A DNA stretch of 64,000 nt from an uncultured Bdellovibrionales bacterium (GCA_964624415.1 CAZUWR010000002.1:76454-140453); one strand, 5' to 3'. Positions 11,487-37,508 are shown, counted from the first letter of the stretch. A program made the numbers and translations. Notes: a model not told the origin generated them from the letters alone.

Positions 11487-14027
11487 TTAAAAATGCACTG
11501 ATACCGATTTGGAATCGCTGACGGTATTGCCATTGTCGTCGGTGAGGGTGGCTTTGACGCTGAGAGTGGAGTTGTTTTTTTCGGTAGGGATGGTGTAGCT
11601 TATTGAAGGATTACTGCTGCCGCTCGAGCCGATGTCGGTTCCGTCGACCGAGAACACGACGCTCTTGGTGCCGTGCGGCGCGTCGGTGCTGGTTGATAAT
11701 GTTATAGTATTGGATGCAGTGTCACCTGGTACAGAGAGGCTGATACTTGGCAGGTACTTGGAGAAATCACTTTCCTTGCACTCATTGGTTGGAACATCGC
11801 CCACGATGATATGCTTGCTATTATCCTTGTCGTTGTACCATTCCTTGACGCCCTTTTCCCATTGTTTGTATTGCGAATCATTGCTTGGTTTGTCGGGAAT
11901 AGCCCCGCGAGGATCGCTTGGATTGACGTAAAAAAGGATATCGTGGCCGCTGACAAAGGTTTTTTTGTCCGCCTCACTGTCGGGACAGTATTTATTAGCG
12001 AGACAGTAAGTATCTTTTTTCCCCGGTATGGAGCAGACTTTTAGGTCTTTAGCCTCGTCGAGTTTGCCATCAAGCATCGGTTTATTGGTTTTGCCGTCGC
12101 TATCGCCGATCTCATCTTCGGGATTGTATTTCGGGAAGTCTTCGATAGCGGAATTGGCGAGAGCTTTGTCCATAAAGGCGCGCCAAATAGGAGCAGCAAC
12201 GACAGATCCGTCAGCGCCTGTGGACATCTCTTCATTTTTGCTATTGCCCACCCAGACACCGGCCGAGAGCGATGGGGTGTACCCGATAGTCCAGGCATCA
12301 TGAAAACCATTGGTCGTACCGGTTTTGGCAACCAGCGGACGATTGTCGGATCGGAGAGGGTTGTTGTCACCGAATACCCACGCACGGTTGTCGTTGTTGG
12401 AAAGCACTGAGTCGAGCATGGCGACATATTTTTCATCAACGACGCGTTCGCCAGGAGTGTCTTTGTATTCCTCCAGGATAGCGCCCTTACTATCTTCGAT
12501 TTTCATAATGGCGGTTTGCGGGTGCTTCACACCGCCGGTTGCCAATGTTCCGTAAGCGCTGACGTGATCGAGGAGTTTAACCTCACCGCCACCGAGCACG
12601 AGCGAGAGACCGTAACGATCAGGCTCATTGAGCGAAGTGATACCGAGGTTTTTCGCCATAATGATAGCGTCCTTGGCACCGGCCAGATAGAGTGTTTTGA
12701 CGGCGGGAATATTGAGCGATCCGCCGAGCGCTTTAGCTAAGGAAATCGGGCCGTGGAATTTGCCATCGTAGTTATTCGGAGTATAATCCTTGCCGTCTTC
12801 GGTGGAAAAATTGGTAGCAACATCATACAGCATCGTTTCCGGAAGGTATCCTTTGACAAAAGCTGTTAGGTAAACATACGGCTTAAAGGAAGATCCTGGT
12901 TGCCGATCGCGTATAGCCACATTGACCTGACCGTCGATGGAGGCGTCCCAGTAATTTTTGGAACCGACCATAGCGAGAATCTGACCTGTTTTGGGATCGA
13001 TGGCGACGAGTGCTGCATTGTTGGCTTTATAGCGGGTGTTTTTTGCTGCACCGTCAGCGACGGCTTTTTCAGCCGCTTGCTGTTTATCCCAATCGAGCGT
13101 GGTGTAGATCTTCAGACCGCCTTGCTCAATGGATTGATCGCCGTATTTGGAAGCGAGGTATTCTTTGATGAACATTACGAAATGCGGCGCCTGGATGTTT
13201 TCAGCCTGCGGTTTGAGTTTTGCGAGTACGTCGATTTGTTTGGCGGTATCAGCTTGGTCTTGGGTGATATAGCCGAGCGTGGCCATTTTTTGTAAAGCGA
13301 ACTCTTGGCGTCCTTTGAGCGCGTCGGTGTGCGAACCATAGGGCGAATAGTAGGTGGGTGCGTTCGGAAGCGCTGCCAGCAGAGCTGATTCATCCAAAGA
13401 AAGGTCTCTCGCTGATTTACCGAAAAAGGTTTGTGACGCAGCCTCAATACCGTACGCATTGGATCCGTAAGGGATTTCATTGAGGTACATTGCGAGAATC
13501 TCATCTTTGGAGAACTTCGTTTCCATCTCAATCGACAAAATAACCTCCTTTATTTTTCGGGTAATGGTCTTCTCCGGAGAGAGGAGGGAGTTTTTGACGA
13601 ATTGCTGAGTGATGGTGGACCCTCCTTGCCTTGCGCCTCGATGTAACACATCGGCGAGGATGGCCCGGATAATAGAAGTGAATTTGATACCGTGATGCGA
13701 ATAGAAATCCTGATCTTCAAGGGTAATGGTGGCGGTACGCACTACCTCTGGCATATCCGAAAAAGAGATGAGCGTGCGTTTTTCTTCCCCGTGCACCTCA
13801 TAGAGCAGGTGATCACCGGTTCGGTCGTAGATCTTGGTCGATTCGGCGATAAATCGATCATTGACCTTGCCAGGGCTCGGTAGGTCTTTGGCGAAGTAGA
13901 TGAAGAAACCGACAAGCAAAACCAGCGAGCCGATGGCAAGACCGGCGATGCTCATCCAAGTTATTTTCCAGACTTTCTTACGCATGTGGCGGCGTCTCGA
14001 TAACGGTCCCGGGGATGTTGTATCCAT
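11487..14027 (-). CDS. Penicillin-binding protein 1A (class A: GT51 transglycosylase + transpeptidase) with long C-terminal extension
   Basis: EDQDFYSHHGI, GGSTITQQFVKN transglycosylase motifs. SxxK/SxN-type transpeptidase region. N-terminal TM anchor. Start may be internal Met at 13985. Confidence 0.85.
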   Translation of the reverse strand: MDTTSPGPLSRRRHMRKKVWKITWMSIAGLAIGSLVLLVGFFIYFAKDLPSPGKVNDRFIAESTKIYDRTGDHLLYEVHGEEKRTLISFSDMPEVVRTATITLEDQDFYSHHGIKFTSIIRAILADVLHRGARQGGSTITQQFVKNSLLSPEKTITRKIKEVILSIEMETKFSKDEILAMYLNEIPYGSNAYGIEAASQTFFGKSARDLSLDESALLAALPNAPTYYSPYGSHTDALKGRQEFALQKMATLGYITQDQADTAKQIDVLAKLKPQAENIQAPHFVMFIKEYLASKYGDQSIEQGGLKIYTTLDWDKQQAAEKAVADGAAKNTRYKANNAALVAIDPKTGQILAMVGSKNYWDASIDGQVNVAIRDRQPGSSFKPYVYLTAFVKGYLPETMLYDVATNFSTEDGKDYTPNNYDGKFHGPISLAKALGGSLNIPAVKTLYLAGAKDAIIMAKNLGITSLNEPDRYGLSLVLGGGEVKLLDHVSAYGTLATGGVKHPQTAIMKIEDSKGAILEEYKDTPGERVVDEKYVAMLDSVLSNNDNRAWVFGDNNPLRSDNRPLVAKTGTTNGFHDAWTIGYTPSLSAGVWVGNSKNEEMSTGADGSVVAAPIWRAFMDKALANSAIEDFPKYNPEDEIGDSDGKTNKPMLDGKLDEAKDLKVCSIPGKKDTYCLANKYCPDSEADKKTFVSGHDILFYVNPSDPRGAIPDKPSNDSQYKQWEKGVKEWYNDKDNSKHIIVGDVPTNECKESDFSKYLPSISLSVPGDTASNTITLSTSTDAPHGTKSVVFSVDGTDIGSSGSSNPSISYTIPTEKNNSTLSVKATLTDDNGNTVSDSKSVSVHF

Positions 14028-14130
14028 AAAAAAAGAGTTAGTAGAAGTATGTTCATTATATCACAAAGAGGCTTTTTTGAGGAGTAAGTAAGAGAAAAAG
14101 CCGCGATTGAATAATATGTGTCATAATGTA

Positions 14131-14159
14131 TTGACAAAACAGAGAGCATCTGCTATACT
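14131..14159 (+). promoter_or_regulatory. Sigma70-type promoter TTGACA-N17-TATACT
   Basis: Perfect -35 (14131..14136), 17 nt spacer, -10 TATACT (14154..14159). Drives a short transcript ending at terminator 14266..14296. Confidence 0.55.
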
Positions 14160-14165
14160 GGTCTT

Positions 14166-14296
14166 TAAAGTACCTGATATTGTGGGCATTGTGAGGGTTG
14201 CGGAGCGGTCTTCGTACCTCTCGCAGTGCTTGGAATCCAAAATATTTTTTTGATGAATAAAAGACAAAAACCCGCATCATGTATGCGGGTTTTTGT
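14166..14296 (+). ncRNA. Candidate small RNA or 5' leader/attenuator (promoter-to-terminator unit ~130 nt)
   Basis: Bounded by consensus promoter and strong intrinsic terminator cccgcat-catgt-atgcggg+TTTTT (14266..14296). No ORF inside. 120 bp upstream of ATP-grasp gene. Class not recognised. Confidence 0.35.
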
Positions 14297-14419
14297 GTAT
14301 TTGGAGGACGTATTCAAGAAAATATCCAAAAAAACTTGACTTTTATAATAAAATATTGTATTGTTAATAATCAAGCAAAAGGTTTGTTTGTGCCGTAATC
14401 AGGATAAGAAACAGACCCT

Positions 14420-15367
14420 ATGAAAAAAAATCCACCAATTATCAAAAACGCCGTATTGGCTATGGGAGGCACCATTGAAGAGTTTATTCCTGAGAGAGGG
14501 TGTTTTTACATCAATATCGAAGGAAAGCGCATTTTTCTTGAGAGAAAAATTTCATTGACCCGCCAAACCTGTGGTGCGGGGCAGTTGACAAGGTGTAAGG
14601 ATGTGACGTATAAACTGCTTTCCAAGAATAATTTACCAACGCCGAAAACCGAGTGTTTTTATAAGAAAAGCTATACTAAAGAACATGCCGAAAGGCAGCT
14701 AGGTGCGCTCCAGTATCCTATTGTAATAAAGGATGCGAGCGGATCCCAATGTAAAGGCGTATTCTCATTTATTAGAAACCTTTCTGATGCGATGATACTC
14801 ATTGAACGGGAACTCCCTCGTTATCGCAGTATGATCGCCCAAGAAATGGTCTTTGGGAAAGAATATCGTGTACTGGTGTTGGATGAAAAAGTGATTGGTG
14901 CTTTAGAGCTTATATCCCCCTACATCGTTGGGGATGGAGTATCGACTGTGCAAGAAATTATCAAAAGAAAGCAGTATACATCGGAATGGAAAACAGAATT
15001 TTATGATGGACTCGAAGCAATATTAAAGGATCAAGATGTTACGCTGGAAAGTATTGTTCCGAAGAATACAATCATATACATCAAACAAGAATCAGCACGA
15101 ACGGAGGCATGGAAAATGAGGGATGTTACGGGTGATGTGCATAAAGACGTTGAAAAAATATGTGTTGCTGCTTCCAAGGCGGTTGGGAAATATCTCGTCG
15201 GTATCGATGTTATTTGTACCGATATATCTCAAGACCCATTGAAACAGCCCTTTACTATTCTCGAAATAAACGGCAAACCGGATCTGTATATTCACTATAA
15301 CCCTACGCATGGACACACGAGGAATGTAGTGGAGGACATCGTGAAGTTTATGATAAAGACCGCTTAA
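14420..15367 (+). CDS. ATP-grasp family ligase
   Basis: 315 aa. ATP-grasp fold pattern (K-rich ATP-binding strand YPIVIKDASGSQCKGV, EYRVLVLDEKVIGA, ILEINGKPDL). Divergent from a second ATP-grasp gene. Confidence 0.6.
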   Translation: MKKNPPIIKNAVLAMGGTIEEFIPERGCFYINIEGKRIFLERKISLTRQTCGAGQLTRCKDVTYKLLSKNNLPTPKTECFYKKSYTKEHAERQLGALQYPIVIKDASGSQCKGVFSFIRNLSDAMILIERELPRYRSMIAQEMVFGKEYRVLVLDEKVIGALELISPYIVGDGVSTVQEIIKRKQYTSEWKTEFYDGLEAILKDQDVTLESIVPKNTIIYIKQESARTEAWKMRDVTGDVHKDVEKICVAASKAVGKYLVGIDVICTDISQDPLKQPFTILEINGKPDLYIHYNPTHGHTRNVVEDIVKFMIKTA

Positions 15368-15396
15368 GAAGCTTTCGAAAAGCTGTAAGCGCCGTC

Positions 15397-16788
15397 TTAC
15401 TTATTTACATCGATCAAGAATTTCCGCAGATTGCGTTTGCCGATGATGACCGGGTATTCCAGGTGAGCTCGATCAATGATTGTCACCTTGGCGAGTATAT
15501 GAATATCATCTATATCCATTTCAACAGGCACAACGACACGATAGGTGGTACCGTGGGATGATTTGACGGGGACGGTACCGATGACATGCGGAATATGCTC
15601 GAACATTTTCCAGCGTTCTTTTCGGGAAAGTTCTGACAGCTCGCTCCATTCTTTGGCTACGCGAAGATATTCCTTCACGGTTTCTTCGAAGCCGAGCGTT
15701 TTGGCGAGTTCCAGATCGATAGCGGTCGAGTCGGCGCCGGTGTCTATTTTGGCTTCTGCATCAATGATTCTTCCATCGATACCGGTGAGTTTGATTTTTG
15801 CGACGGTACCGATAATTTTTTTACCGGAAATCTCTTCGATTTCTTCTTGGATTTCTCCTCCGAACAAATCCATTCCCATACGGACACCCCGCAAGACGCT
15901 TTTGACCTTCAATCCTTTGACGCGCTCGAGGCGAGTCTTGAGACCATCGTCGTTCGCGGCCTGAATAGAGAGTCCTGGCCTTGCATTGAGCTCGAGGAAA
16001 ACCGGTCCGCGTTCGCGATCGATGGCGATATCAGCGCCCAAAAATCCGAGACCGGAGACTTGTTGAGCCCGGACGGCCATAGTGAGGATATCTTTCCAAT
16101 AGGGAATCTTGATACCGGAAAGCGCGAGCCTGGTCCCGGGGGCGTACTCGATGAATTTCCCTTTACCTAAGACAGCGGTCGTGGTGGTCCCGGAGGCAAG
16201 GTCGATGCCCAGTCCTATAGCGCCCTGTTGAAGGTTGGCTTTTCCGCCGGATTCTTTGGTCGGGAGACGGAGCATAGCCATGACGGGTATATTGTTGAAA
16301 ACGATGACGCGGATATCGGGGATACCCTTGTAGGCATAGGGTTTGAAGAGTTTGAGCAGCGTGAGCCGTTCTTCAAAGAAGGCGGTGTCAGGCGTACCTG
16401 ACAGAGAGAATGAGCCATCGAGGATATTGCGGATATGAGCCTGAATATCGTCGAGTGTAAGAGAAGATCCATTGGCCTTGACCCAGACATCGCCGGTCTT
16501 TTTTTTACCATACACCACAACGATACCTTCGCCTCCGAAGCCTCGATTCGGCTTGAGCGCGAAACTCGATGGGAGCTTACTCCAATCGAACCGTTCCAAT
16601 TCTTCTACGGTAGAGATTTTAGCGATAAGGCGAGGTGTCGGGAGATCATGCTTATTAAGGACCCGTTTGCAGAGAATTTTGTTATCAGAAATCCGCTTGC
16701 CGCGAGCACGGTTATACGGACGTATGTAATCGAGGTTTCGAGCATTCATCCCGAGTATACCCTGACTTTTGACGAAGGCTTCAAACAT
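15397..16788 (-). CDS. RimK-like (alpha-L-glutamate-ligase-related) ATP-grasp fused to C-terminal retropepsin-like aspartic protease domain
   Basis: N-terminus GILGMNARNLDYIRPYNRARGKRISDNKILCKRVL matches RimK-related ATP-grasp N-terminal signature. C-terminal ~140 aa contains KIDTGADSTAID (D-T-G-A aspartyl protease motif, 'putative ATP-dependent zinc protease' family). Confidence 0.6.
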   Translation of the reverse strand: MFEAFVKSQGILGMNARNLDYIRPYNRARGKRISDNKILCKRVLNKHDLPTPRLIAKISTVEELERFDWSKLPSSFALKPNRGFGGEGIVVVYGKKKTGDVWVKANGSSLTLDDIQAHIRNILDGSFSLSGTPDTAFFEERLTLLKLFKPYAYKGIPDIRVIVFNNIPVMAMLRLPTKESGGKANLQQGAIGLGIDLASGTTTTAVLGKGKFIEYAPGTRLALSGIKIPYWKDILTMAVRAQQVSGLGFLGADIAIDRERGPVFLELNARPGLSIQAANDDGLKTRLERVKGLKVKSVLRGVRMGMDLFGGEIQEEIEEISGKKIIGTVAKIKLTGIDGRIIDAEAKIDTGADSTAIDLELAKTLGFEETVKEYLRVAKEWSELSELSRKERWKMFEHIPHVIGTVPVKSSHGTTYRVVVPVEMDIDDIHILAKVTIIDRAHLEYPVIIGKRNLRKFLIDVNK

Positions 16789-16826
16789 AAAAAAGTGTAT
16801 TATATCTCAAAAAGAATCGCGATATT

Positions 16827-17480
16827 TTATTGCGTGAAGATTTTTCGGAAGCGAAGGTATTCCGTGATGCGAAGTCCTGTCCATTTGCCCAACCAAAAAT
16901 TGACCGGGATGGTGAGGAGCACTACCCACGGGTGGGCGATGATGAGTTCGATAAGCACGTGGTAACGGACGATCGAGTAACAGACAAGCGAGATACCCAG
17001 GGTTTCGAGCGCGAGTATGATGGCGGTTTTGTCTCCTTTTTCAATCTGAGTGGCGACGAATTTCTCGACCAACGTGATCATAATCAGGAGTGGGAAAATC
17101 GAGACCGAAGCAAGTCCTGTACGGCTGAAGGAGCCGCCGATAACGAGCACAGTGAGTGTGCTCAAGGCCACAATAGTGAGTGTCAGGGCGACGCGCGGCA
17201 GGTAGAGCAATCTGAATCGTCTCAGCACGATGCGCGAGAGCATGCCGGTGATAATGATAGTGAAAAAAATCGCTATGCCGTATTTGATTCCCTTCGGGTC
17301 GAATGCGAGGAAGGCAAAAGTGACGATAGAGGGCGTGTAGATACCAAAGGCTTTAATCCCGACGATTTGACGAAAGAGCGCTACCAGCGTGGCCACGACC
17401 GGGAGAGCAAGAAGCAAAACGATGGTATCGAGCGGGACGCCCTGCTGAAGGAAGAAATCAATGAGTGGGTGCACGGTCAT
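16827..17480 (-). CDS. 7-TM integral membrane protein (7TM module associated with RimK-like ATP-grasp systems)
   Basis: 217 aa, ~7 hydrophobic helices, immediately downstream of the ATP-grasp/retropepsin gene on the same strand. Confidence 0.5.
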   Translation of the reverse strand: MTVHPLIDFFLQQGVPLDTIVLLLALPVVATLVALFRQIVGIKAFGIYTPSIVTFAFLAFDPKGIKYGIAIFFTIIITGMLSRIVLRRFRLLYLPRVALTLTIVALSTLTVLVIGGSFSRTGLASVSIFPLLIMITLVEKFVATQIEKGDKTAIILALETLGISLVCYSIVRYHVLIELIIAHPWVVLLTIPVNFWLGKWTGLRITEYLRFRKIFTQ

Positions 17481-34457: not shown

Positions 34458-34542
34458 GGAGGGGTCGCATAGTGGCCTAGTGCGCTTGCTTGGAAAGCAA
34501 GTGTGGGGCAACCCACCGGGAGTTCGAATCTCCCCCTCTCCG
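34458..34542 (+). tRNA. tRNA-Ser (anticodon GGA)
   Basis: Cloverleaf by eye: acceptor GGAGGGG/CCTCTCC (one G-U), anticodon arm CTTGC-TTGGAAA-GCAAG (anticodon GGA), long variable arm, T-arm GGGAG-TTCGAAT-CTCCC. CCA not encoded. Confidence 0.85.
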
Positions 34543-37111: not shown

Positions 37112-37115
37112 GATG

Positions 37116-37508
37116 TGGAGCTGATGGGAATTGCACCCATGTCCAGTAATGTTTTCCTGCAATACTCTACAAGCTTAGTTTGCTTTTTGTAAGCCTCAAA
37201 AGTACAAAACAAACCAAGTCTTTTGAGTCTAGACGCTTTGTGCAAGGGGTCTCATCGAAAAAGCGGCTGAAATGATGAGTCCTTCCCGATGTATGACACC
37301 AAGATCTCCGTACCGGGAATCGGGAGCTTGATGAATTTGGAATTTAAGCCAAATTGAAGGCGAAAGTAGGTGTAAAAGCTTGCGCTAATGCCTGCTTGGC
37401 CTTTGAAAAGACGTTTGCAATTGTCATGATGAGAGATGGTTTACGATAATACCCTCATAATCGGCTTGCGTATTGTAAAAGGACACCCTGTCGAGTCTAA
37501 ACAACCCC
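37116..37508 (-). ncRNA. ssrA: tmRNA (SsrA)
   Basis: Minus-strand 5' end GGGGUUGUUUAGACUCGACAGGG matches tmRNA 5' consensus (GGGGnUGnUUnnGAUUCGACGGG). 3' end ...AUGGG-UGCAAUU-CCCAU-CAGCUCCA gives T-arm plus acceptor 3' strand pairing with 5' GGGGUUG, including the G3:U70 pair. Candidate tag frame GCA AAC GUC ... UUU GCC UUC AAU UUG GCU UAA (…AFNLA*). Starts 8 nt after smpB stop. Confidence 0.65.

What the first reader, a model, noticed from the sequence alone, without database searches (positions are those of the whole stretch)
14131..17480. Divergent ATP-grasp / (RimK-like ATP-grasp + retropepsin-like protease fusion) / 7TM cluster with its own promoter–terminator leader
Three genes are involved: 14420..15367 (ATP-grasp, + strand), 15397..16788 (– strand), and 16827..17480 (– strand, 7TM membrane protein).

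The 15397..16788 protein has an N-terminus carrying the RimK-related 'ilGMNxRN…N…DdK' signature. Its C-terminus has the D-T-G-A aspartyl-protease motif.

From established knowledge, this trio matches the predicted peptide amidoligase systems described only computationally: RimK-like ATP-grasp + 'ATP-dependent Zn protease'/retropepsin + 7TM module. No substrate is known.

Here the ligase and protease are fused and a second ATP-grasp is encoded divergently. In this lineage it may synthesise or process a peptide (poly-amino-acid tail or envelope modification).
Basis: partly seen in the sequence, partly recalled or inferred. Interest (0 to 1): 0.7.

Follow-up and report, generated by a model that had tools for sequence, protein, structure and literature searches.

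The report
Fused Rlo-type peptide ligase–protease cassette
A Candidatus Moranbacteria genome carries a compact version of the recently described bacterial Rlo/Rim systems, with the peptide-adding enzyme and the HIV-protease-like trimming enzyme fused into one cytoplasmic protein next to a seven-helix membrane partner and a swappable extra ligase; it is a widespread uncharacterised variant of a known kind, not a new kind of system.

Summary
All three ORFs and both motifs are at the stated coordinates. The 463-aa protein is an RloC-type ATP-grasp ligase (PF14397, 1.5e-68) fused to a RimB/RloA-type retropepsin (PF05618; the domain model matches only retropepsins). The 217-aa protein is the 7TM half of RloB without its transglutaminase-like domain. 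The 315-aa protein is a stand-alone ligase resembling the cyanophycin-synthetase G domain.

Three corrections:
- The extra ligase is convergent with the fusion gene, not divergent.
- The system is no longer purely computational. rloABC and RimB/RimK were studied experimentally in 2025, and a reverse-order RimBK fusion is published.
- The promoter–terminator "leader" is a conserved structured RNA. It also occurs in relatives with a different ligase or none, so it is probably a separate small RNA.

The fusion occurs in at least 579 Patescibacteria species genomes. The 7TM gene sits directly upstream in 75 of 76 loci, followed by 0–3 low-GC, interchangeable ATP-grasp ligases. PBP1A adjacency is inherited synteny, not independent evidence.

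Most likely mechanism (inferred): the 7TM protein holds the ligase at the membrane, the ligase builds an acidic, polyglutamate-like peptide, and the fused protease trims it. The substrate is unknown.

Verdict: new variant of a known kind; moderate interest.

The parts
16827..17480 (-). 7TM membrane protein (217 aa), homologous to the C-terminal 7TM half of RloB. It has no inactive-transglutaminase domain. Predicted topology is N-terminus outside, C-terminus in the cytoplasm.
   Evidence: PF14402 at 4.9e-27, covering profile positions 58-247 of 248. NF052267 RloB at 2.3e-19, covering only positions 309-505 of 508. 31% identity over 195 aa to residues 310-501 of the Legionella RloB-like protein. 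About 7 hydrophobic peaks, with K/R concentrated in alternate loops and the C-terminal tail. Immediately upstream of the fusion gene in 75 of 76 species-level loci.
15913..16788 (-). N-terminal RloC-type ATP-grasp ligase domain of the fusion protein (residues about 1-292).
   Evidence: PF14397 ATPgrasp_ST at 1.5e-68, residues 17-291. TIGR02291 at 1.4e-84, 283.8 bits against a cut-off of 314.2. 42% identity over 278 aa to the Legionella TIGR02291 protein. K79, E139/E140, D253, E266, N268 and R270 are invariant. Best fold matches are ArgX/LysX, RimK, PsnB and CphA1. No signal peptide or TM segment.
15811..15912 (-). Inter-domain linker (residues about 293-326) with the conserved Glu-rich motif LFGGEIQEEIEEISGKK.
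   Evidence: Low pLDDT over residues 271-326. F309, G310, G311, E312, E316, E318, S321 and G322 are invariant in close homologues and largely kept at 40-50% identity. Stand-alone RloC-like proteins end just after the '...LF' helix.
15400..15810 (-). C-terminal RimB/RloA-type retropepsin domain (residues 327-463). The catalytic DTGA is at 15733-15744.
   Evidence: PF05618 at 4.2e-10, 40.1 bits against a cut-off of 27. RloA3, RloA2 and RloA1 models at 1e-7 to 3e-4. A profile of the domain hits PDB sequences 9g58 (6.5e-9), 9g59 and 2pma. hhalign probability 94.5% to the Legionella RloA-like protein. The domain model has pLDDT 87 and pTM 0.81, and all top 50 Foldseek hits are retropepsins. K347, D349, R417 and R440 are invariant and match the RloA polyGlu-binding positions by spacing (PMC12239564).
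14420..15367 (+). Accessory stand-alone ATP-grasp ligase (315 aa) resembling the G domain of cyanophycin synthetase and the ATP-grasp of GshAB. It is convergent with the fusion gene and occupies the variable 'ligase slot'.
   Evidence: Cyanophycin synthetase models at 3e-44 but 151 bits against a cut-off of 877, matching only positions 207-473. PDB CphA1 7lg5 residues 216-478 at 3.7e-23. The family is 56-72% identical across Moranbacteria. Found in the same layout (L094/L095), co-directional and overlapping the fusion stop codon (L090/L091), or unlinked (L092/L093). GC 0.407 against about 0.50 in the flanking genes. Relatives with equally similar flanks carry a ligase only 17-21% identical in this slot.
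14336..14364 (+). Promoter-like site (TTGACT-17-TATTGT) between the terminator and the ligase start codon. It is the likely promoter of whichever ligase occupies the slot.
   Evidence: 9 of 12 matches. The 38-nt stretch is 92% conserved in L006/L007, upstream of a non-orthologous ligase.
14126..14309 (+). Promoter 14131-14159, extended hairpin 14179-14236 with an invariant 32-nt core at 14191-14222, bidirectional terminator 14264-14296.
   Evidence: Promoter 11 of 12 with a TG extension. RNA fold MFE -54.9 kcal/mol, z = -6.85. 26 pairs, 7 with compensatory changes, and invariant G-U pairs that work only on the + strand. nhmmer finds it only in the nearest clade, including L008/L009, which have no accessory ligase. 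No Rfam family reaches its threshold.

Best explanation
This is the Patescibacteria version of the Rlo/Rim class of 'peptide-tail ligase plus retropepsin' systems.

What is shown by homology and structure prediction:
- Gene 1 (16827-17480) encodes the 7TM module of RloB without its extracytoplasmic transglutaminase-like domain.
- Gene 2 (15397-16788) encodes a cytoplasmic fusion of an RloC-type ATP-grasp ligase and a RimB/RloA-type retropepsin, with both catalytic sites intact.
- These two genes form an almost invariant pair across the phylum.
- They are followed by a variable slot holding 0-3 additional ATP-grasp ligases. Here the slot holds one ligase resembling the cyanophycin-synthetase G domain, on the opposite strand.

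How it most likely works (inferred):
1. The 7TM protein holds the fusion enzyme at the cytoplasmic face of the membrane.
2. The ligase uses ATP to add acidic residues stepwise, most likely alpha-linked glutamate as RimK does, to the C-terminus of a peptide or protein acceptor, or to a free growing chain.
3. The retropepsin domains pair into an active dimer inside the ligase oligomer. They cut the acidic chain, limiting or releasing it, and possibly stimulate the ligase as RimB stimulates RimK.
4. The accessory ligases add further residues or prime the chain.
5. The 7TM protein passes the product, or a signal from it, to the cell envelope.

The promoter-hairpin-terminator unit upstream of the ligase gene is a separate, lineage-specific small RNA, not a leader of this system.
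For: Homology of all three parts to a canonical rloABC operon.

Catalytic residues of both domains are invariant in 38 homologues and largely kept at 40-50% identity.

The retropepsin fold is confirmed. K347, R417 and R440 align by spacing with the residues that coordinate polyGlu in RloA (K46, R114, R137) (PMC12239564 section 8).

The ligase domain is structurally closest to enzymes that extend the C-termini of proteins or peptides: ArgX/LysX, RimK and CphA1.

No signal peptide, TM segment or Cys pair is present, so the protease is cytoplasmic like RimB.

The 7TM gene is adjacent in 75 of 76 loci, and 7TM-ATP-grasp fusion proteins exist (P0234, P0257). These place the ligase at the cytoplasmic C-terminal side of the 7TM module.

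In sister lineages the same ligase is also fused to a MATCAP-type carboxypeptidase (L053 and L064). This is a second, unrelated peptidase type, which again points to a peptide C-terminus as the chemistry.

Published genetics show that deleting rloB or rloC suppresses the protease-less mutant, so the ligase and 7TM protein make something the protease must remove (PMC12239564). RimB removes Glu tails and stimulates RimK about four-fold, and a RimBK fusion is active (PMC11957791).

Evidence that the RNA unit is independent.
Against: - No substrate or product is known for any RloC-type ligase. Glutamate specificity is extrapolated from RimK and from the in-vitro preference of RloA and RimB.
- TIGR02291 scores 283.8 bits, below its 314.2 cut-off.
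- In Pseudomonas the protease acts in the periplasm. Here it is cytoplasmic, so the logic of the pathway may differ.
- Retropepsin dimerisation within the fusion could not be modelled.
- No polyGlu or acidic-tailed ORF, and no rpsF, is present in the window.
- In 2 of 20 divergent fusions the catalytic Asp is Asn, so the protease is not always active.
- Pfam's own name for the ligase family ('sugar-transfer associated') suggests a different acceptor class.
Confidence: 0.6

Rival explanations
1. RimK/RimBK-like ribosome modifier. [quoted passage not shown]
For: The ATP-grasp plus retropepsin combination is the same as in RimK-RimB, and an active RimBK hybrid is published (PMC11957791). Both enzyme domains here are cytoplasmic. 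RimK is among the best fold matches.
Against: The ligase belongs to the PF14397/TIGR02291 (RloC) family, not to RimK: TIGR00768 scores 46.8 bits against a cut-off of 143.4. The NCBIfam RimB model does not hit the protease domain at E <= 0.1, while the RloA models do. The domain order is the reverse of RimBK. The 7TM gene is adjacent in 75 of 76 loci and is sometimes fused to the ligase, which a ribosomal role does not explain.
Confidence: 0.08
2. Small-peptide metabolite pathway. The set of ATP-grasp ligases, plus a GNAT in some relatives, makes a defined di-, tri- or oligopeptide such as an osmolyte or thiol peptide (like NAGGN or glutathione). The protease handles turnover and the 7TM protein handles export or import.
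For: The accessory ligases resemble GshB, the ATP-grasp of GshAB, the CphA G domain and N-acetylglutaminylglutamine synthetase. L090/L091 carry a GNAT next to the W315-type ligase. The Rlo phenotype in Pseudomonas is osmotic (PMC12239564).
Against: 13 of 54 loci have no accessory ligase at all, so the core function needs only the 7TM protein and the fusion. The accessory ligases are non-orthologous between close relatives, which does not fit a fixed metabolite. All matches to characterised enzymes are far below their cut-offs. A retropepsin with a polyGlu-type basic channel suits polymers of at least 6-8 residues, not di- or tripeptides (PMC11957791, PMC12239564).
Confidence: 0.12
3. Envelope glycan or peptidoglycan amino-acid modification. 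The ligase attaches amino acids to a sugar-linked or lipid-linked cell-wall precursor, and the 7TM protein is the flippase or acceptor-binding partner.
For: Pfam names the family 'sugar-transfer associated ATP-grasp'. PBP1A lies within 8 kb downstream in 26 of 45 loci. One representative is fused to a YdjC-like sugar deacetylase (P0121). Rlo mutants show defects in cell shape and beta-lactam sensitivity (PMC12239564). The accessory ligase genes are low in GC and rapidly exchanged, like loci for surface structures.
Against: PBP1A adjacency co-varies almost perfectly with RuvC adjacency (23 with both, 15 with neither, 2 discordant), so it is inherited gene order and not independent evidence. No glycosyltransferase or Mur-ligase genes are in the cassette. 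The fused peptidases (retropepsin, MATCAP) point to peptide chains.
Confidence: 0.15
4. The promoter-hairpin-terminator unit at 14131-14300 is a cis-acting attenuator or riboswitch controlling the downstream ligase gene.
For: The order promoter, structured RNA, intrinsic terminator, gene is the classic attenuator layout. The RNA structure is real.
Against: The same element is present, with its promoter, in L008/L009. These have no gene downstream in that direction, only the 3' end of the opposing fusion gene. It is also present in L005-L007, upstream of a non-orthologous ligase. A separate promoter-like site lies between the terminator and the start codon. No alternative anti-terminator fold was evident, and the MFE structure keeps the terminator intact. 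No Rfam riboswitch or leader reaches its threshold.
Confidence: 0.12

Closest known systems
RloABC (retropepsin-like osmotic stress tolerance) operon of Pseudomonas aeruginosa and other Gammaproteobacteria (Lormand et al., mBio 2025, PMC12239564)
   Same: All three protein modules are homologous. The ligase is RloC-type (PF14397/TIGR02291, 42% identical to a canonical member). The protease is an RloA-type retropepsin with DTGA and the basic substrate-channel residues. The membrane protein matches the RloB 7TM module (31% identity). Linkage of the 7TM protein with the ligase is tight, and the substrate is unknown in both cases.
   Different: The protease is fused to the C-terminus of the ligase and is cytoplasmic, with no signal peptide and no disulfide pair, instead of being a secreted stand-alone protein. 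The 7TM protein lacks the roughly 300-aa inactive-transglutaminase domain; some CPR lineages have an N-terminal PKD domain instead. The gene order is 7TM then ligase-protease, not A-B-C. There are extra accessory ATP-grasp ligases. The host is Patescibacteria, whereas 96% of RloB hits were reported from Proteobacteria.
RimK-RimB and the RimBK hybrid (Little et al., JBC 2025, PMC11957791)
   Same: An ATP-grasp alpha-L-glutamate ligase is paired with, or fused to, a cytoplasmic retropepsin that trims polyGlu and stimulates the ligase. This sets the precedent that such a fusion is enzymatically active.
   Different: The ligase family differs (RimK TIGR00768 against RloC-type). In RimBK the protease is N-terminal, here it is C-terminal, so this is an independent fusion. 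Rim systems have no 7TM partner. The Rim target, ribosomal protein S6, is not indicated here.
Cyanophycin synthetase CphA1 G domain, and the ATP-grasp of GshAB (comparators for the 315-aa accessory ligase)
   Same: The ATP-grasp core is homologous over about 260 residues (7lg5 residues 216-478, E = 3.7e-23). The CphA1 G domain extends a peptide backbone at its C-terminus.
   Different: The protein is only 315 aa, with no N domain and no Mur-ligase-like M domain. Scores are far below the family cut-offs (151 against 877). It is not a cyanophycin synthetase, despite automatic annotations in relatives.
Tubulin tyrosine ligase (TTL) with MATCAP, and LysX/ArgX with LysW (functional analogies)
   Same: The logic of adding residues to, and removing them from, a protein C-terminus. 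CPR relatives fuse the same ligase to a MATCAP-family carboxypeptidase. ArgX/LysX are the best structural matches.
   Different: No carrier protein or tubulin-like acceptor was identified. The similarity lies in fold and logic only.

Membership tests
Rlo system (RloABC) | RloC: a cytoplasmic ATP-grasp of the PF14397/TIGR02291 family | tested here: met
   PF14397 scores 231.4 bits against a cut-off of 31.4. 42% identity over 278 aa to a TIGR02291 member that scores 436 bits. The window protein itself scores 283.8 bits, below the TIGR02291 hypothetical-equivalog cut-off of 314.2. Family membership holds, but equivalog status does not.
Rlo system (RloABC) | RloA: retropepsin fold with a catalytic DTG(A) motif and a positively charged substrate channel | tested here: met
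   DTGA is invariant. The domain model (pLDDT 87) matches 2pma, 9g59 (RloA2), Ddi1 and HIV protease. K347, R417 and R440 are conserved at the positions of RloA K46, R114 and R137, mapped by spacing through 9g58.
Rlo system (RloABC) | RloA is a separate, secreted protein with an N-terminal signal peptide and a conserved disulfide pair | tested here: not met
   The protease is the C-terminal domain of a 463-aa protein that has no hydrophobic segment. There are 0 Cys in the domain.
Rlo system (RloABC) | [quoted passage not shown] | tested here: not met
   Only the 7TM half is present. NF052267 is matched at positions 309-505 of 508, with 69.5 bits against a cut-off of 900. BLASTP aligns the protein to residues 310-501 of a 508-aa RloB-like protein. 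The protein is 217 aa long.
Rlo system (RloABC) | Role in hypo-osmotic tolerance, cell shape and beta-lactam tolerance; ligase or 7TM loss suppresses protease loss | not testable with these tools
   This is genetics in an uncultured CPR bacterium. It could be approached only by heterologous complementation.
RimK/RimB/RimBK | Ligase belongs to the RimK family (TIGR00768 / PRK10446) | tested here: not met
   TIGR00768 scores 46.8 bits against a cut-off of 143.4. PRK10446 scores 13.8 bits against 331.
RimK/RimB/RimBK | Protease matches RimB, and in the hybrid it lies N-terminal to the ligase | tested here: not met
   NF052261 (RimB) gives no hit at E <= 0.1 for the window protein, although it does hit the Legionella RloA-like protein. 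The domain order here is ligase then protease.
RimK/RimB/RimBK | The substrate is the Glu-Glu C-terminus of ribosomal protein S6 | not testable with these tools
   rpsF is not in the window, and the rest of the genome is not available.
Cyanophycin synthetase (for the 315-aa ligase) | Multi-domain N-G-M architecture of about 870 aa, scoring above the TIGR02068 cut-off | tested here: not met
   Only the G-domain region aligns (residues 51-313 to positions 205-472 of 862), with 148.9 bits against a cut-off of 850.
Known cis-regulatory RNA or sRNA families (Rfam 15) for 14126-14309 | Score at or above a family's gathering threshold | tested here: not met
   The best match is Thr_leader at 28.7 bits against 55, and it is driven only by the terminator hairpin. 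The window-wide gathering scan finds only a tmRNA and a tRNA.

The most novel reading that the evidence does not exclude
The 7TM protein, the ligase-protease fusion and up to three or four interchangeable ATP-grasp ligases form a ribosome-independent, membrane-coupled peptide assembly line that is widespread in CPR bacteria. It builds a strain-variable acidic hetero-oligopeptide. That peptide is trimmed in the cytoplasm and then delivered through or onto the 7TM protein to decorate the cell envelope. It would be a diversifying surface structure of these episymbiotic bacteria, and its minimal two-gene core would reveal the still-unknown chemistry of the Rlo system of pathogens.
Probability: 0.15. 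Interest if true: 0.75.

Novelty: new variant of a known kind. Interest (0 to 1): 0.45.

Why it matters
The product of the Rlo system is unknown, although the system controls osmotic tolerance, cell shape, biofilm formation and beta-lactam sensitivity in P. aeruginosa.

The Patescibacteria form is a natural minimal version, and it constrains any mechanism in four ways:
- The transglutaminase-like domain is dispensable.
- The protease can act on the cytoplasmic side.
- Ligase and protease work at fixed 1:1 stoichiometry.
- The 7TM module is the one indispensable partner.

A soluble 463-aa fusion with both active sites is also a convenient single protein for biochemistry, for example ATP plus amino acids followed by mass spectrometry.

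For CPR biology, it identifies a phylum-wide conserved cassette with a hypervariable ligase slot. That pattern is typical of surface-structure loci.

Separately, the spacer holds a covariation-supported, lineage-specific small RNA. Very few regulatory RNAs are known in this group.

Tried and rejected
1. **Rfam.** A permissive scan of the spacer and a gathering-threshold scan of the whole window gave only terminator-driven sub-threshold hits.
2. **First DNA pattern for the RNA core.** It had one N too many and found nothing. The corrected pattern worked.
3. **PBP1A adjacency as evidence for a peptidoglycan role.** Rejected as independent evidence, because it co-varies with RuvC adjacency (23 with both, 15 with neither, 2 discordant).
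4. **The Glu-rich linker as an autoprocessing or pseudo-substrate site for the fused protease.** This is not supported by the known rules. RimB needs at least 5-6 and RloA at least 8 contiguous Glu (PMC11957791 section 7, PMC12239564 section 8), and the linker's Glu run is interrupted. It is kept only as a note.
5. **Search for an acceptor in the window.** There is no rpsF and no ORF with a polyGlu run or an acidic C-terminal tail.
6. **N-terminal truncation of the 315-aa ligase relative to the 365-370-aa neighbours in L005-L007.** Rejected. Those proteins are only about 25% identical and non-orthologous, and the window's own family is uniformly about 315 aa.
7. **The long 7TM forms (518-591 aa) as transglutaminase-bearing RloB orthologues.** Rejected. 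Their N-terminal domain is PKD.
8. **Iyer et al. 2009 (PMC3268129).** The paper could not be read because it is not held. Statements about it rest on Pfam descriptions and my own recollection.
9. **Cluster look-up for taxon names of the stand-alone RloC-like representatives.** It gave no organism names. A Legionella plasmid operon was used as the canonical comparator instead.
10. **Graspetide or RiPP reading.** Rejected. There is no precursor gene, and the ligase family differs.

Full report
**Observation**

The 463-aa protein begins ...ILGMNARNLDYIRPYNRARGKRISDNK... and contains D349-T350-G351-A352. Both motifs are invariant in 38 homologues.

One point of geometry is wrong. The 315-aa gene and the fusion gene are convergent, with stop codons 29 bp apart. 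The 315-aa gene is divergent only from the PBP1A gene at 11487..14027 (-).

The 392-bp spacer does contain a near-consensus promoter (TTGACA-17-TATACT at 14131-14159) and a strong hairpin flanked by A and T runs at 14264-14296.

**What the proteins are**

Pfam places residues 17-291 of the fusion in PF14397 (ATPgrasp_ST, 1.5e-68) and residues 337-462 in PF05618 (Zn_protease, now called RimB-like; 4.2e-10, above its cut-off).

NCBIfam gives TIGR02291 'alpha-L-glutamate ligase-like protein' at 1.4e-84 (283.8 bits, just under the 314.2 cut-off), plus weak hits to the RloA1, RloA2 and RloA3 retropepsin models. RimK proper scores only 46.8 bits against a cut-off of 143.4.

The 217-aa protein hits PF14402 (7TM_transglut) and the RloB model, but only over positions 309-505 of 508. 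That is the membrane half alone.

The 315-aa protein matches the ATP-grasp (G) domain of cyanophycin synthetase and the ATP-grasp of GshAB, far below their cut-offs.

**Direct comparison with a canonical operon**

A Legionella adelaidensis plasmid carries an operon encoding an RloA-like protein (152 aa), an RloB-like protein (508 aa, 472 bits) and a TIGR02291 protein (436 bits). Against these:
- the window's ligase domain is 42% identical over 278 aa;
- the protease domain aligns at 94.5% hhalign probability;
- the 7TM protein is 31% identical to residues 310-501 of the RloB-like protein.

**Structure**

AlphaFold2 on a 38-sequence alignment gives two confident domains (about residues 30-270 and 327-457) joined by a low-confidence linker of about 55 residues.

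The full model matches ArgX/LysX, RimK, PsnB, CphA1 and Ddl.

Modelled alone, the C-terminal domain reaches pLDDT 87 and pTM 0.81. All 50 top Foldseek hits are retropepsins: Legionella 2pma, Ddi1, the HIV, FIV and HTLV proteases, P. aeruginosa RloA2 (9g59) and Rickettsia APRc.

The ATP-grasp catalytic set (K79, E139/E140, D253, E266, N268, R270) is invariant.

K347, R417 and R440 are also invariant. They have the same spacing from the catalytic Asp as K46, R114 and R137 of RloA, which coordinate polyglutamate (PMC12239564 section 8).

The fusion has no signal peptide, no TM segment and no cysteines in the protease domain. The protease is therefore cytoplasmic like RimB, unlike secreted RloA.

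**Organism and distribution**

Named hits are Candidatus Moranbacteria and other Patescibacteria.

- The fusion is 64-86% identical across the top 120 of more than 6000 hits.
- An exhaustive search found 1960 clusters at 50% identity with E <= 1e-3.
The 80 best loci kept carry names from Moran-, Pacei-, Kerfeld-, Falkow-, Dojka-, Woese- and Kaiserbacteria, plus bins labelled Saccharibacteria.

Related architectures also exist:
- the fusion plus a MATCAP-type carboxypeptidase;
- the fusion plus YdjC;
- the fusion plus another ATP-grasp;
- 7TM fused to the ATP-grasp.

**Neighbourhood**

I called ORFs in the 80 best loci and screened them with phmmer.

- The 7TM gene lies directly upstream on the same strand in 75 of 76 loci with enough flank.
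- Downstream there are 0 (13 loci), 1 (16), 2 (22) or 3 (3) further ATP-grasp ligase genes.
- Most 7TM ORFs are 216-254 codons. Ten are 518-591 codons, and these carry an N-terminal PKD domain, not a transglutaminase domain.
- RuvC/YebC upstream and PBP1A downstream are common. They co-occur almost perfectly (23 loci with both, 15 with neither, 2 discordant). PBP1A adjacency is therefore inherited gene order and cannot be counted as functional evidence.

**The accessory ligase slot**

Four genomes have fusion, 7TM and PBP1A proteins that are all 81-87% identical to the window's. Even so, the slot holds the W315-type ligase in the window and L094 (72% identical to each other), and an unrelated ligase of 365-370 aa (17-21% identity) in L005 and L006.

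In L090/L091 a W315-type ligase is co-directional and overlaps the fusion's stop codon. It is followed by a GNAT, an unknown 627-aa protein and another ligase. In L092/L093 it is unlinked to the cassette.

In every locus examined the accessory ligase gene has 5-10 points lower GC than its flanks; in the window it is 0.407 against about 0.50.

The ligases fall into CphA-G-like, RimK-family-like and divergent GshB/RimK-like types.

**The 'leader'**

The promoter, a hairpin of about 58 nt with an invariant 32-nt core (14191-14222), and the terminator are conserved in the window's nearest clade only: L005-L009 and L094/L095.

L008 and L009 have no accessory ligase. There the element points at the 3' end of the opposing fusion gene.

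- The RNA folds at -54.9 kcal/mol, z = -6.85.
- Across five sequences, 7 of 26 pairs show compensatory double changes. Several invariant G-U pairs exist only on the + strand.
- A second promoter-like site (14336-14364) lies between the terminator and the ligase start codon. It is 92% conserved upstream of a non-orthologous ligase in L006/L007.
- No Rfam family reaches its threshold.

I read this as an independent, lineage-specific small RNA of about 135 nt, transcribed divergently from PBP1A. An attenuator role is a minority alternative.

**Literature**

The system is no longer purely computational.

- Lormand et al. 2025 (PMC12239564) named rloABC. They solved RloA structures (C2 dimers with DTG at the interface and a basic channel) and showed cleavage of at least 8 contiguous Glu. 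Loss of all three RloA paralogues is lethal in low-salt medium, and deleting rloB or rloC rescues it.
- Little et al. 2025 (PMC11957791) showed that RimB is a retropepsin endopeptidase that removes Glu tails from S6 and stimulates RimK about four-fold. They also showed that a RimBK hybrid, with the protease N-terminal, is active.
- Disruption of the RloB homologue in Shewanella alters membrane-vesicle production (PMC12096838).
- Full-text searches found no paper describing the Patescibacteria variant.

**Mechanism**

Shown here by computation:
- homology of all parts to the Rlo system;
- intact active sites in both enzyme domains;
- cytoplasmic location of both enzyme domains;
- obligate pairing with the 7TM gene;
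- a variable ligase slot.

Inferred:
1. The 7TM protein has its N-terminus outside and its C-terminus inside. This follows from the positive-inside distribution of K/R, from the 7TM-ligase fusions, and from the extracytoplasmic N-terminal domains in relatives.
2. It tethers the fusion enzyme at the membrane.
3. The ligase extends a peptide C-terminus with acidic residues.
4. The retropepsin domains dimerise and trim or release the chain.
5. The accessory ligases diversify it.
6. The 7TM module links the product to the envelope.

The independent fusion of the same ligase to a MATCAP-family carboxypeptidase in sister lineages supports chemistry at a peptide C-terminus.

Weak points: the substrate, the amino-acid specificity, dimer formation and the role of the 7TM protein are all untested.

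**Verdict**

The finding is real and mostly well interpreted. It is a new variant of a known kind, not a new kind of system. It differs from the known systems in four ways:
- a reversed-order fusion of an RloC-type ligase and a retropepsin;
- a 7TM partner without the transglutaminase-like domain;
- a hypervariable accessory-ligase slot;
- distribution across the whole phylum Patescibacteria.

Interest is moderate (0.45). Its value is as a minimal, tractable model for the unknown Rlo chemistry and as a conserved CPR cassette.

Noticed in passing
window 14126-14309 (+): Candidate lineage-specific small RNA of about 135 nt. It has a conserved promoter, a 26-bp hairpin with 7 compensatory pairs and G-U pairs specific to the + strand, an invariant 32-nt core (GTGAGGGTTGCGGAGCGGTCTTCGTACCTCTC) and a bidirectional terminator. 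It has no Rfam family and was found only in the nearest Moranbacteria clade, always just upstream of PBP1A and divergent from it.
   Followed up: yes
window 15811-15912 (-), residues about 293-326 of the fusion: The linker between ligase and protease carries a conserved Glu-rich motif, LFGGEIxEEIEEISGKK, that is kept even at 40-50% identity. It is interrupted, so it does not meet the published RimB/RloA requirement for contiguous polyGlu. A pseudo-substrate or autoprocessing role is possible but untested.
   Followed up: partly
L053:3414-5873, L064:7980-10382; proteins P0122, P0129, P0138, P0121, P0147: In sister CPR lineages the same ligase, with or without a degenerate retropepsin, is further fused to a MATCAP-family (tubulin tyrosine carboxypeptidase-like) metallopeptidase, a YdjC-like deacetylase or a second ATP-grasp. 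Many representatives of about 790 aa have the ligase-MATCAP architecture.
   Followed up: partly
L043:6392-8020, L053:1843-3417, L073:6186-7958: Ten of the 75 adjacent 7TM ORFs are 518-591 codons long. They carry an N-terminal PKD domain where proteobacterial RloB carries the inactive transglutaminase domain, so a different extracytoplasmic module sits in the same position.
   Followed up: partly
window 14420-15367; L094, L005, L006, L090 ligase genes: The accessory ligase genes have 5-10 points lower GC than the flanking cassette genes in every locus examined. They are replaced by non-homologous ligases between genomes whose flanking proteins are 81-87% identical. This hot-swap pattern is reminiscent of surface-structure loci.
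   Followed up: partly
L090:6971-9364: In one Moranbacteria lineage the cassette also holds a GNAT acetyltransferase (154 aa) and a 627-aa protein with no Pfam or NCBIfam match, between the W315-type ligase and another ATP-grasp.
   Followed up: no
window 37113-37508 (-) and 34458-34542 (+): A tmRNA gene (Rfam 115.7 bits) and a long-arm tRNA (85 nt) are the only RNAs in the window that reach Rfam gathering scores.
   Followed up: no
hit H3 (Halobacterium sp. DL1 plasmid CP007061.1, 106170-107009): An unannotated stretch on an archaeal plasmid encodes a stand-alone RloC-like ligase (38.5% identity over query residues 11-293). The ligase family therefore reaches haloarchaea.
   Followed up: no
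L011, L017, L020, L025, L054, L062 and other loci: Several MAG records carrying the typical Patescibacteria cassette and synteny are titled 'uncultured Bdellovibrionales', 'Gammaproteobacteria' or 'Candidatus Fimivivens'. These are probably mislabels from automated binning or taxonomy, so organism names in that table should be treated with care.
   Followed up: no
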